Part shown: one piece after another, positions 43,331 through 46,120 of the stretch
How positions within the stretch are numbered: position 1 is the first letter of the stretch
How the letters are laid out: every line of letters starts with the position of its first letter
Source of the DNA: Escherichia coli
GTDB lineage: Bacteria; Pseudomonadota; Gammaproteobacteria; Enterobacterales; Enterobacteriaceae
DNA: 64,000 nt
Direction: 5' to 3' (one strand)
Assembly (NCBI RefSeq): GCF_050920415.1
Contig: NZ_CP169309.1
Program-made: the position numbers and the translations under genes
The notes under the pieces: generated by a model
The model's input: the letters and a program-made list of their open reading frames with translations, nothing else
Told to the model about the DNA's origin: nothing
Database searches by the model: none

Positions 43331-44365
43331 ATGAGTAACGCGATTACGATGGGGATATTTTGGCATTTGATCGGCGCGGCCAGTGCAGCCTGTTTTTACG
43401 CGCCGTTCAAAAAAGTAAAAAAATGGTCATGGGAAACCATGTGGTCAGTCGGTGGGATTGTTTCGTGGATTATTCTGCCGTGGGCCATCAGCGCCCTGTT
43501 ACTACCGAATTTCTGGGCGTATTACAGCTCGTTTAGTCTCTCTACACTGCTGCCTGTTTTTCTGTTCGGTGCTATGTGGGGGATCGGTAATATCAACTAC
43601 GGCCTGACCATGCGTTATCTCGGCATGTCGATGGGAATTGGCATCGCCATTGGCATTACGTTGATTGTCGGTACGCTGATGACGCCAATTATCAACGGCA
43701 ATTTCGATGTTCTGATTAATACCGAAGGCGGACGCATGACGTTGCTCGGCGTTCTGGTGGCGCTGATTGGCGTAGGGATTGTAACTCGCGCCGGGCAGTT
43801 GAAAGAGCGCAAGATGGGCATAAAAGCCGAAGAGTTCAACCTGAAAAAAGGGCTGGTGCTGGCGGTGATGTGCGGCATTTTCTCTGCCGGGATGTCCTTT
43901 GCGATGAACGCCGCAAAACCGATGCATGAAGCCGCTGCCGCACTAGGCGTCGATCCACTGTATGTCGCTCTGCCAAGCTATGTTGTCATCATGGGCGGTG
44001 GCGCAATTATCAACCTCGGTTTCTGTTTTATTCGTCTGGCAAAAGTGAAAGATTTGTCGCTAAAAGCCGACTTTTCACTGGCAAAACCGCTGATCATTCA
44101 CAACGTGTTACTCTCGGCACTGGGCGGTTTGATGTGGTATCTGCAATTCTTTTTCTATGCCTGGGGCCACGCCCGCATTCCGGCGCAGTATGACTACATC
44201 AGCTGGATGCTGCATATGAGCTTCTATGTATTGTGCGGCGGTATAGTTGGGCTGGTGCTGAAAGAGTGGAACAATGCAGGTCGCCGTCCGGTAACGGTGT
44301 TGAGCCTCGGTTGTGTGGTGATTATTGTCGCCGCCAACATCGTCGGCATGGGCATGGCGAATTAA
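43331..44365 (+). CDS. rhaT: L-rhamnose-proton symporter
   Basis: 344-aa [41 protein letters not shown]... recognised as RhaT. Confidence 0.96.
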
Positions 44366-45210
44366 TCTTTCTGCGAATTGAGATGACGCCACTGGCTGGG
44401 CGTCATCCCGGTTTCCCGGGTAAACACCACCGAAAAATAGTTACTATCTTCAAAGCCACATTCGGTTGAAATATCACTGATTAACAGGCGGCTATGCTGG
44501 AGAAGATATTGCGCATGACACACTCTGACCTGCCGCAGATATTGATTGATGGTCATTCCAGTCTGCTGGCGAAATTGCTGACGCAAAACGCGCTCACTGC
44601 ACGATGCCTCATCACAAAATTCATCCAGCGCAAAGGGACTTTTCAGGCTGGCCGCCAGCCGGGTAATCAGCTTATCCAGCAACGTTTCGCTGGATGTTGG
44701 CGGCAACGAATCACTGGTGTAACGATGGCGATTCAGCAACATCACCAACTGCCCGAACAGCAACTCTGCCATTTCGTTAGCAAACGGCACATGCTGACTA
44801 CTTTCATGCTCAAGCTGACCGATAACCTGCCGCGCCTGTGCCATCCCCATGCTACCTAAGCGCCAGTGTGGTTGCCCTGCGCTGGCGCTAAATCCCGGAA
44901 TCGCCCCCTGCCAGTCAAGATTCAGCTTCAGCCGCTCCGGGCAATAAATAATATTCTGCAAAACCAGATCGTTAACGGAAGCGTAGGAGTGTTTATCGTC
45001 AGCATGAATGTAAAAGAGATCGCCACGGGTAATGCGATAAGGGCGATCGTTGAGTACATGCAGACCATTACCGCGCCAGACAATTACCAGCTCACAAAAA
45101 TCATGTGTATGTTCAGCAAAGACATCTTGCGGATAACGGTCAGCCACAGCGACTGCCTGCTGGTCGCTGGCAAAAAAATCATCTTTGAGAAGTTTTAACT
45201 GATGCGCCAC
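44362..45210 (-). CDS. rhaR: AraC-family rhamnose regulon activator RhaR
   Basis: The track ORF runs to 45375. The 282-aa form that I remember as the current annotation (…[30 protein letters not shown]...) starts at the GTG near 45210; an alternative ATG at about 45300 gives a 312-aa form. The 5' end is therefore uncertain. Confidence 0.85.
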
Positions 45211-45283
45211 CGTGGCTACCTCGGCCAGAGAACGAAGTTGATTATTCGCAATATGGCGAACAAATACGTTGAGAAGATTCGCG

Positions 45284-46120
45284 TTATTGCAGAAAGCCAT
45301 CCCGTCCCTGGCGAATATCACGCGGTGACCAGTTAAACTCTCGGCGAAAAAGCGTCGAAAAGTGGTTACTGTCACTAAATCCGCAGCGATAGGCGATGTC
45401 TGTAACGCTGGCCTCGCTGTGGCGTAGCAGATGTCGGGCTTTCATCAGTCGCAGGCGGTTCAGGTAACGCTGAGGCGTCAGTCCCGTTTTCTGCTTAAGC
45501 TGCCGATGTAGCGTACGCAGCGAAAGAGAAAATTGATCCGCCACGGCATCCCAATTTACCTCATCGGCAAAATGGTCCTCCAGCCAGGCCAGAAGCAAGT
45601 TGAGACGTGATGCGCTGTTTTCCAGGTTCTCCTGCAAACTGCTTTTACGCAGCAAGAGCAGTAATTGCATAAACAAGATCTCGCGACTGGCGGTCGAGGG
45701 TAAATCATTTTCCCCTTCCTGCTGTTCCATCTGTGCAACCAGCTGTCGCACCTGCTGCAACACGCTGTGGTTAACGCGCCAGTGAGACGGATACTGCCCA
45801 TCCTGCTCTTGTGGCAGCAACTGATTCAGCCCGGCGAGAAACTGAAATCGATCCGGCGAGCGATACAGTACATTGGTCAGACACAGATTATCGGTATGTT
45901 CATACAGATGCCGATCATGATCGCGTACGAAACAGACAGTCCCACCGGTGATGGTATAGGGCTGCCCATTAAACACATGAATACCCGTGCCATGTTCGAC
46001 AATCACAATTTCATGAAAATCATGATGATGTTCAGGAAAATCCGCCTGCGGGAGCCGGGGTTCTATCGCCACGGACGCGTTACCAGACGGAAAAAAATCC
46101 ACACTATGTAATACGGTCAT
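45284..46120 (-). CDS. rhaS: AraC-family rhamnose operon activator RhaS
   Basis: 278-aa [47 protein letters not shown]... recognised as RhaS. Confidence 0.96.

What the first reader, a model, noticed from the sequence alone, without database searches (positions are those of the whole stretch)
44362..45375. Ambiguous RhaR start and tight rhaS-rhaR junction
The longest rhaR ORF (from 45375) would overlap the rhaS 3' end by about 90 bp. An ATG at about 45300 gives a 312-aa protein and a GTG at about 45210 gives the 282-aa form. Start-site choice affects whether rhaS and rhaR are translationally coupled.
Basis: partly seen in the sequence, partly recalled or inferred. Interest (0 to 1): 0.2.

Follow-up and report, generated by a model that had tools for sequence, protein, structure and literature searches.

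The report
Known ambiguous start of E. coli rhaR
The rhamnose regulator gene rhaR in this E. coli window has several possible in-frame start codons, but every line of evidence points to the already-annotated GTG start (282 amino acids), which lies 73 bases after rhaS, so this is an ordinary, previously resolved annotation question.

Summary
On the minus strand rhaS is 46120..45284. The rhaR frame is open back to GTG 45375 (337 aa, 92-nt overlap with rhaS). In-frame starts also lie at ATG 45300 (312 aa) and GTG 45210 (282 aa), plus an unmentioned GTG at 45321.

The evidence favours GTG 45210:
- RefSeq annotates it in K-12 and in every strain checked.
- All 34 related Enterobacterales loci keep a start codon at that aligned position. 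30 of them have an in-frame stop at most 17 codons upstream.
- Three NCBIfam RhaR models, the RhaS paralogue and two crystal structures of the RhaR N-terminal domain all begin there.
- It has the better Shine-Dalgarno (GAGGT, -7.3 kcal/mol, against -4.8 for the ATG).

The 312-aa extension is confined to Escherichia, and a 1-nt deletion breaks it in one Escherichia lineage. An open frame of that length is expected by chance about 30% of the time. A minor 312-aa isoform in E. coli cannot be excluded.

The junction is therefore a 73-nt spacer, not a tight overlap, and termination-reinitiation coupling with rhaS is unlikely. This is already known and of low interest.

One side observation is unexplained. 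The first ~45 nt of the spacer hold a conserved two-part DNA block with fixed spacing. It could be an internal rhaR promoter.

The parts
45284..46120 (-). rhaS coding sequence (278 aa, ATG start, strong SD AGGAGG)
   Evidence: ORF list. RefSeq annotation of a 100% identical strain and of K-12. NCBIfam RhaS equivalog NF010028 at 547 bits, covering 1-278 of 278. SD duplex -10.3 kcal/mol.
44362..45210 (-). rhaR coding sequence as annotated and conserved (282 aa, GTG start at 45210)
   Evidence: RefSeq CDS in 8 records. A start codon is conserved at this position in all 34 related loci. NCBIfam RhaR models NF010025, NF010027 and NF010026 align from profile position 1 at this residue. PDB 5u93 chain A starts MAHQLKLL.
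45218..45222 (-). Shine-Dalgarno GAGGT of rhaR, 8 nt upstream of GTG 45210 counted from the GAGG core
   Evidence: Sequence. Duplex with the 16S 3' end is -7.3 kcal/mol, reached by roughly 6-17% of random positions. A GAGG or GGGG motif is conserved at this place in most related loci.
45211..45283 (-). 73-nt rhaS-rhaR spacer (non-coding under the annotated start; codons 7-30 of the hypothetical 312-aa form)
   Evidence: The spacer is 71-77 nt in 20 loci and 88-158 nt, mostly with REP-like insertions, in the rest.
45298..45300 (-). In-frame upstream ATG (312-aa form) inside the rhaS 3' end; possible minor start restricted to Escherichia
   Evidence: Weak SD-like AGGGA, -4.8 kcal/mol, within the random range. 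Kept in 8 sampled Escherichia sequences. Out of frame with rhaR in lineage CP089930.1. Absent or closed by stops in the other genera.
45319..45321 (-). In-frame GTG (319-aa form); no support
   Evidence: One search lists it. The -5.2 kcal/mol duplex comes from GGUCACC in the rhaS codons (my reading of the sequence), not from a core GGAGG motif. Not conserved.
45373..45375 (-). GTG that opens the mechanically longest ORF (337 aa); no support
   Evidence: SD duplex -3.3 kcal/mol, equal to the random mean. Family models leave residues 1-56 unaligned.
45241..45283 (-). Conserved two-part block in the spacer: CGCGAA-N5-(A)TCA(C/A)CGTTTTTT (45283-45258) and the hexamer (A/G)ATA(A/C)T (AATAAT, 45246-45241) at a fixed 26-27 nt from TCA. 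Function unknown; candidate internal promoter.
   Evidence: Alignments. The first 26 nt have mean column identity 0.83, against 0.64 for rhaS third codon positions. The spacing is fixed in 31 of 31 loci.

Best explanation
This is the ordinary E. coli rhaSR operon. RhaR is translated mainly from GTG 45210 (282 aa), using its own moderate Shine-Dalgarno (GAGGT) 8 nt upstream. That start lies 73 nt beyond the rhaS stop codon, so initiation is de novo and not by termination-reinitiation coupling with rhaS. The weak start (GTG plus a moderate SD, compared with ATG plus AGGAGG for rhaS) would keep RhaR lower than RhaS; that is an inference, in line with a published review. The longer reading frames are by-products of a spacer that happens to lack in-frame stops in Escherichia. 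GTG 45375 and GTG 45321 are not used. ATG 45300 may at most give a minor 312-aa isoform specific to this lineage, whose 30 extra residues are not part of the conserved protein. What is shown directly: the conservation of the start, the annotation, the family-model boundaries, and that the crystallised domain begins at this residue. What is inferred: the in-vivo usage ratios and the lack of coupling.
For: RefSeq annotates 849 nt (282 aa) in a strain that is 100% identical over the 1.9-kb rhaSR segment queried, in K-12 (NP_418342.2) and in six further strains. The aligned position carries a start codon in all 34 other Enterobacterales loci: GTG in 27, TTG in 4, ATG in 3. 30 of these loci have an in-frame stop no more than 17 codons upstream. 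Three NCBIfam RhaR equivalog models align from profile position 1 exactly at this residue. The RhaS model aligns RhaR residues 7-277 to RhaS positions 4-272, so the paralogues' N-termini differ by 3 residues, not 33. PDB 5u93 and 5u9e (RhaR N-terminal domain) start at MAHQLKLL, or two residues later, without the extension. SD duplex energies are -7.3 (GTG 45210), -4.8 (ATG 45300), -5.2 (GTG 45321) and -3.3 (GTG 45375), against a random mean of -3.45 with sd 2.6. The spacer tolerates REP-like insertions up to 158 nt in other genera, which does not fit distance-dependent coupling. [quoted passage not shown] A survey of 10,643 E. coli genomes reports that rhaR carries a non-ATG start almost exclusively (PMC11445065).
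Against: No direct N-terminal or ribosome-profiling evidence for native RhaR could be retrieved; Tobin & Schleif 1990 and Wickstrum 2010 are not held. In all 8 sampled E. coli and Escherichia MOD1 sequences the ATG 45300 frame stays open and the ATG is kept. The ATG lies 14 nt before the rhaS stop, a position from which reinitiation is mechanistically possible. From memory, and not verified here, Tobin & Schleif (J Mol Biol 1990, 211:75) reported two active RhaR forms from two in-frame starts when the gene was overexpressed, and the Egan laboratory numbered RhaR residues on a 312-aa scale. RefSeq annotation, NCBIfam models and crystallisation constructs are not independent of earlier curators' choices.
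Confidence: 0.85

Rival explanations
1. Dual initiation. Both GTG 45210 and ATG 45300 are used from the native operon mRNA in E. coli and yield 282-aa and 312-aa RhaR isoforms. The longer one is made by ribosomes that reinitiate as they finish rhaS, so part of RhaR synthesis is coupled to RhaS synthesis.
For: ATG and open frame are retained in 8 of 8 sampled Escherichia sequences. The ATG lies 14 nt upstream of the rhaS stop, with AGGGA 4 nt upstream. 312-aa records are abundant in public databases. My unverified recollection is that two active forms were purified in 1990.
Against: The extension is absent outside Escherichia, and a 1-nt deletion puts it out of frame in Escherichia lineage CP089930.1. 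Its SD is no better than random. Polymorphism in the extension is 4 synonymous-only to 3 non-synonymous codons, against 24:4 in rhaS and 11:4 in the rhaR core; this suggests relaxed constraint, but the numbers are too small to test. The N-terminal domain crystallises without it. Database records reflect gene-caller choices, not protein data.
Confidence: 0.25
2. ATG 45300 is the main physiological start (312 aa, the original annotation), and rhaS and rhaR are a classical overlapping, translationally coupled pair.
For: The 17-nt overlap geometry is typical of coupled pairs. ATG is a stronger initiator than GTG (general knowledge). Many deposited 312-aa records exist.
Against: All the comparative, family-model, structural and SD evidence listed for the best explanation. 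The curated K-12 record uses the 282-aa form; its version suffix .2 suggests, but does not show, that the protein record was revised.
Confidence: 0.06
3. GTG 45375 (337 aa), or GTG 45321 (319 aa), is the true start, giving a roughly 90-nt gene overlap.
For: Only that the frame is open.
Against: The SD energy for 45375 equals the random mean. The 45321 duplex rests on GGUCACC in the rhaS codons rather than a core SD. An open frame of this length is expected in about a quarter of such alternative-frame windows. No family model covers residues 1-56. Not annotated in any record examined.
Confidence: 0.01
4. rhaR also has its own promoter inside the spacer. A CRP-like site (TAACGCGAATCTTCTCAACGTA, 45286-45265, centred at 45276/45275) is followed about 27 nt later by a -10-like AATAAT (45246-45241), giving a start near 45234. 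Such a transcript would contain only the GTG 45210 start. It would supply basal RhaR without RhaS.
For: The two blocks are conserved with fixed spacing across 31 loci, while the sequence between them and the distance to the SD vary. The pattern xGxGA-N6-TCAC matches 7 of 10 core positions of the CRP consensus. The hexamer keeps the A and T at the positions most conserved in -10 elements. REP-like insertions fall only downstream of the hexamer. No conserved RNA structure explains the block.
Against: No transcription-start data could be reached, and no paper mentions such a promoter. The consensus promoter scan finds nothing in the spacer. A 7/10 CRP match is expected by chance in about 1 in 6 such stretches (my estimate). 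The two C's, where CRP prefers T, are strictly conserved, which argues for some other ligand. In E. coli itself the second half-site is degraded (TCAAC) and the T-run is broken.
Confidence: 0.2

Closest known systems
E. coli K-12 rhaSR operon (b3905 rhaS, b3906 rhaR; NP_418341.1, NP_418342.2)
   Same: Colinear with the window with no indels and 2.1% substitutions over 3.5 kb. Same gene order rhaB<-|->rhaS-rhaR|<-rhaT, same 73-nt spacer, same GTG start, and the same upstream ATG and open frame.
   Different: Strain-level substitutions only: RhaS L106Q and Q211K, RhaR N108S and K197E, one change in the spacer (45259) and two in the rhaB-rhaS control region.
RhaR N-terminal domain crystal structures, PDB 5u93 and 5u9e
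   Same: Nearly identical sequence over the 172 aligned residues; one difference (S/N) is visible in the printed alignment. Chain A of 5u93 begins at the residue encoded by GTG 45210, read as Met.
   Different: These are truncated constructs. They show that the domain needs no N-terminal extension, not which start the cell uses.
[quoted passage not shown]
   Same: rhaR is listed among the regulators that carry a non-ATG start almost exclusively. Here the start is GTG or TTG in all 32 of the 35 sequences outside the three Budvicia/Limnobaculum loci.
   Different: The functional consequence was tested for lacI only, not for rhaR.
Overlapping, translationally coupled gene pairs (termination-reinitiation)
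   Same: Only the hypothetical ATG 45300 start would give the defining geometry, a start within a few nucleotides of the upstream stop.
   Different: The conserved start is 73 nt downstream of the stop and has its own SD. Spacer length varies from 71 to 158 nt among relatives.

Membership tests
HTH-type transcriptional activator RhaR (AraC/XylS family; NCBIfam equivalogs NF010025 and NF010027) | Full-length match above the curated cut-off | tested here: met
   575.7 bits against a cut-off of 525, and 568.5 bits against 384. The 282-aa form aligns to profile positions 1-281 and 1-282 of 282.
HTH-type transcriptional activator RhaR (AraC/XylS family; NCBIfam equivalogs NF010025 and NF010027) | Genomic context: downstream of rhaS, divergent from rhaBAD, next to rhaT | tested here: met
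   ORFs and RefSeq features.
HTH-type transcriptional activator RhaR (AraC/XylS family; NCBIfam equivalogs NF010025 and NF010027) | N-terminus as in the family (no extension) | tested here: met
   In the 312-aa and 337-aa forms, residues 1-30 and 1-55 precede the position aligned to profile position 1 and are unaligned; the printed alignments start at residues 32 and 57, profile position 2. 34 of 34 related loci start at the aligned position.
Translationally coupled overlapping gene pair | Downstream start overlapping, or within a few nt of, the upstream stop | tested here: not met
   There is a 73-nt gap for the conserved GTG start. The feature is met only for the non-conserved ATG 45300.
Translationally coupled overlapping gene pair | Downstream translation depends on upstream translation | not testable with these tools
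   Needs rhaS nonsense or frameshift constructs with a rhaR reporter.
Gene with two functional in-frame initiation sites (isoform pair) | Both start codons and the intervening frame conserved among relatives | tested here: not met
   The upstream start and frame are limited to E. coli and Escherichia MOD1. They are broken in CP089930.1 and closed by stops in other genera.
Gene with two functional in-frame initiation sites (isoform pair) | Direct protein evidence for both N-termini | not testable with these tools
   The primary paper is not held. There is only my unverified recollection of two forms on overexpression.
Class II CRP-dependent promoter (considered for the conserved spacer block) | CRP site matching TGTGA-N6-TCACA, centred about 41.5 bp upstream of the transcription start | tested here: inconclusive
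   7 of 10 core positions match in most genera and 6 of 10 in E. coli. The centre lies 27 bp before a -10-like hexamer, implying a centre near -40. The conserved C's at T-preferring positions argue against CRP.
Class II CRP-dependent promoter (considered for the conserved spacer block) | Mapped transcription start and dependence on CRP | not testable with these tools
   The supplements of the Cappable-seq papers are cut or lack the locus.

The most novel reading that the evidence does not exclude
The conserved two-part block in the first ~45 nt of the rhaS-rhaR spacer (45283-45241) is an undescribed internal promoter, dependent on an activator that may be CRP-like. It would make a rhaR-only transcript starting near 45234. 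That transcript would supply the basal RhaR needed to start the rhamnose cascade. It would also explain why only the GTG 45210 start is conserved.
Probability: 0.2. Interest if true: 0.4.

Novelty: already known. Interest (0 to 1): 0.1.

Why it matters
For the finding itself, very little. The start of rhaR was re-annotated long ago, and the window adds nothing new. The practical point is for people who build rhamnose-inducible vectors or number RhaR residues. The 282-aa and 312-aa numbering schemes differ by 30, and both forms are widespread in databases. The conserved spacer block would matter modestly if it proves to be a regulatory element. It would add an unrecognised control point to one of the best-studied sugar regulons and a mechanism for basal RhaR supply.

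Tried and rejected
1. The spacer block as a duplicated copy of the RhaR, RhaS or CRP operators upstream of rhaS. Local alignment of each genome's spacer against its own 300-nt rhaB-rhaS control region gave z < 2 in all 32 loci. The resemblance I first saw was to a T-run that is not conserved in the rhaSR promoter region.
2. A conserved RNA hairpin, terminator or attenuator in the spacer. RNAalifold found no consensus structure in the spacer, individual folds differ between genera, and the terminator scan found nothing there.
3. A known RNA family. Rfam gave no match even at E <= 10.
4. A standard sigma-70 -35/-10 promoter in the spacer. None was found.
5. The literature for direct start-site evidence. 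Seven full-text searches found no accessible paper on the RhaR N-terminus. Tobin & Schleif 1990 and Wickstrum 2010 are not held.
6. Transcription-start data. The Cappable-seq supplement is cut before this locus, and the SMRT-Cappable-seq tables do not list rhaR or rhaS.
7. A polymorphism test of coding constraint on the extension. The counts are too few to decide.
8. The frame-broken junction of CP089930.1 is not found among the 5,426 RefSeq complete E. coli genomes; the listed hits are 88% identical. It therefore represents a separate Escherichia lineage, not E. coli variation.

Full report
WHAT IS THERE. On the minus strand the window carries rhaS (46120..45284, 278 aa) followed by rhaR, with rhaT convergent downstream and rhaB divergent upstream. 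The 1.9-kb segment is 100% identical to E. coli strain MFDS1022581 and matches 5,423 of 5,426 complete RefSeq E. coli genomes. It is colinear with K-12 MG1655, with 75 substitutions and no indels over 3,526 nt.

- GTG 45375 opens the longest ORF (337 aa) and overlaps rhaS by 92 nt.
- ATG 45300 gives 312 aa. It is formed by the rhaS codons GAT-GGC, 14 nt before the rhaS stop.
- GTG 45210 gives 282 aa.
- A further in-frame GTG at 45321 (319 aa) was not mentioned.

IS THE OPEN FRAME MORE THAN CHANCE? No. 34% of shuffles of the 73-nt spacer have no in-frame stop. 27% of 31-codon windows in the same relative alternative frame of long ORFs in this window are open.

WHICH START?

(a) Annotation. RefSeq gives an 849-nt (282-aa) rhaR and a 73-nt gap after rhaS. 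This holds in the strain identical over this segment, in K-12 (NP_418342.2), in EDL933, in an ST131 strain and in three other strains. It also holds in a strain where an IS1 has replaced rhaS.

(b) Comparative genomics. A scan of one genome per species returned 34 Enterobacterales loci from about a dozen genera. With the window that makes 35 sequences. All have a start codon at the position aligned to 45210: GTG in 28, TTG in 4 and ATG in 3.
- In 30 of the 34 other loci an in-frame stop lies no more than 17 codons upstream, often only 4.
- The long extension with its ATG exists only in the window's species and in Escherisia sp. MOD1-EC7003.
- In the Escherichia lineage represented by CP089930.1 (RhaR 93% identical) the spacer is 72 nt. 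The ATG there is out of frame with rhaR and a stop lies 4 codons before the GTG. That junction type is not present among RefSeq complete E. coli genomes.

(c) Family models. Three NCBIfam RhaR equivalog profiles (282, 282 and 290 positions) align from position 1 at the GTG-encoded residue. They leave the 30 or 55 extra residues unaligned. The RhaS profile aligns RhaR residues 7-277 to RhaS positions 4-272, so the two paralogues' N-termini are offset by three residues.

(d) Structures. PDB 5u93 and 5u9e (RhaR N-terminal domain) begin at MAHQLKLL, or two residues later.

(e) Ribosome-binding sites. Duplex energies with the 16S 3' end, against a mean of -3.45 (sd 2.6) for random positions:
- rhaS ATG: -10.3 kcal/mol (AGGAGG).
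- GTG 45210: -7.3 (GAGGT, 8-nt spacer).
- ATG 45300: -4.8.
- GTG 45321: -5.2. The duplex appears to come from GGUCACC in the rhaS codons, not a core SD (my reading of the sequence).
- GTG 45375: -3.3.

(f) Literature. [quoted passage not shown] A survey of 10,643 E. coli genomes lists rhaR among regulators with an almost exclusively non-ATG start (PMC11445065).

WHAT REMAINS OPEN. In all eight sampled E. coli and MOD1 sequences the ATG 45300 frame is intact. Codon polymorphism in the extension is 4 synonymous-only to 3 non-synonymous, against 24:4 in the rhaS 3' part and 11:4 in the rhaR 5' part. This leans towards relaxed constraint, but the numbers are too small to decide. Both the 282-aa and the 312-aa K-12 sequences are in public protein collections, each on at least 1000 contigs, and 288-aa calls also exist.

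From memory, not verified here because the paper is not held: Tobin & Schleif (1987) first predicted 312 aa. Their 1990 purification paper reported two active forms from two in-frame starts on overexpression. I therefore keep a 0.25 probability that a minor 312-aa isoform is made from the native operon.

MECHANISM. Translation of RhaR most likely starts de novo at GTG 45210. The terminating ribosome on the rhaS stop (45286-45284) is 73 nt away. My estimate is that a ribosome protects about 12-15 nt downstream of the stop. That does not reach the small hairpin that pairs ACUUCG (45237-45232) with the SD region. I therefore infer neither reinitiation coupling nor coupling by unfolding.

Other genera carry REP-like insertions that lengthen the spacer to 121-158 nt, which does not fit a distance-critical junction. 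The combination of GTG and a moderate SD, conserved as GTG or TTG in all sequences except the three Budvicia/Limnobaculum loci, suggests selection for low RhaR synthesis relative to RhaS. This is an inference.

SIDE OBSERVATION. The spacer is not featureless. Directly after the invariant TAA there is a block, CGCGAA-N5-(A)TCA(C/A)CGTTTTTT. Its mean column identity is 0.83, against 0.64 for rhaS third codon positions. After a variable stretch comes the hexamer (A/G)ATA(A/C)T, at a fixed 26-27 nt from TCA in 31 of 31 loci. REP-like insertions always lie downstream of the hexamer.

What the block is not, or not detectably:
- It is not a copy of the operators upstream of rhaS.
- It has no consensus RNA structure.
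- It has no Rfam match.
- It is not picked up by simple promoter or terminator scans.

Its layout fits xGxGA-N6-TCAC, which is CRP-like at 7 of 10 core positions, centred about 27 bp before a -10-like hexamer. That is the geometry of an activator-dependent internal promoter, and it would give a rhaR-only mRNA starting near 45234. In E. coli the block is partly degraded (TCAAC, and an interrupted T-run). I could not reach any transcription-start data, and no accessible paper mentions such a promoter. I rate this at 0.2.

VERDICT. This is already known. Interest is 0.1.

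Noticed in passing
window 45241-45283 (-): A conserved two-part block sits in the rhaS-rhaR spacer. 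It is CGCGAA-N5-(A)TCA(C/A)CGTTTTTT followed by (A/G)ATA(A/C)T at a fixed 26-27 nt, in 31 Enterobacteriaceae loci. It is more conserved than neighbouring third codon positions. Its function is unknown. The layout resembles a CRP-like site plus a -10 hexamer.
   Followed up: partly
L005, L010, L017, L020, L021, L022, L034 and others, between the rhaS stop and the rhaR start: REP-like palindromic insertions (for example gccggatg...catccggc and tgtcggatg...ttatccgac) lengthen the spacer to 137-158 nt in Citrobacter and Buttiauxella. They always lie downstream of the conserved hexamer and upstream of the SD. Atlantibacter-type loci have a GC-rich insert of about 55-60 nt at the same place.
   Followed up: partly
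window 44362-44365: The convergent genes rhaR (-) and rhaT (+) overlap by 4 bp. Their two TAA stop codons share the palindrome TTAA, which leaves no intergenic room for terminators. RefSeq shows the same arrangement.
   Followed up: no
L046 (E. coli NCTC9064, NZ_LR134315.1) 788-1540: The strip between fdhD and rhaR, where rhaS and the genes upstream of it would lie, is occupied by an IS1A element. The IS1 end abuts the sequence ...CGAATAATCAAC. This leaves rhaR with only about 40 nt of native upstream sequence, starting 2 nt before the conserved AATAAT hexamer.
   Followed up: no
L032, L033, L036 (Budvicia, Limnobaculum), about 35-50 nt upstream of rhaR: These distant relatives have ATG starts and a different spacer of 121-156 nt. 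It contains a conserved near-palindrome, atatg(t/c)cacact (tgtgatatgtcacact in L036). This may be a separate operator or promoter for rhaR.
   Followed up: no
window 46313 and 46255 (rhaB-rhaS control region); RhaS residues 106 and 211; RhaR residues 108 and 197: The window differs from K-12 at two positions in the divergent promoter region. 46313 changes ggcaacCaggg to ggcaacTaggg; from memory this lies in or next to a RhaS half-site of the rhaBAD promoter. The protein differences are RhaS L106Q and Q211K, and RhaR N108S and K197E.
   Followed up: no
protein cluster (P0007, P0012): Some Shigella dysenteriae and E. coli records give a 288-aa RhaR, a third annotated start six codons upstream of the GTG. 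I did not check whether a mutation creates a start codon there.
   Followed up: no
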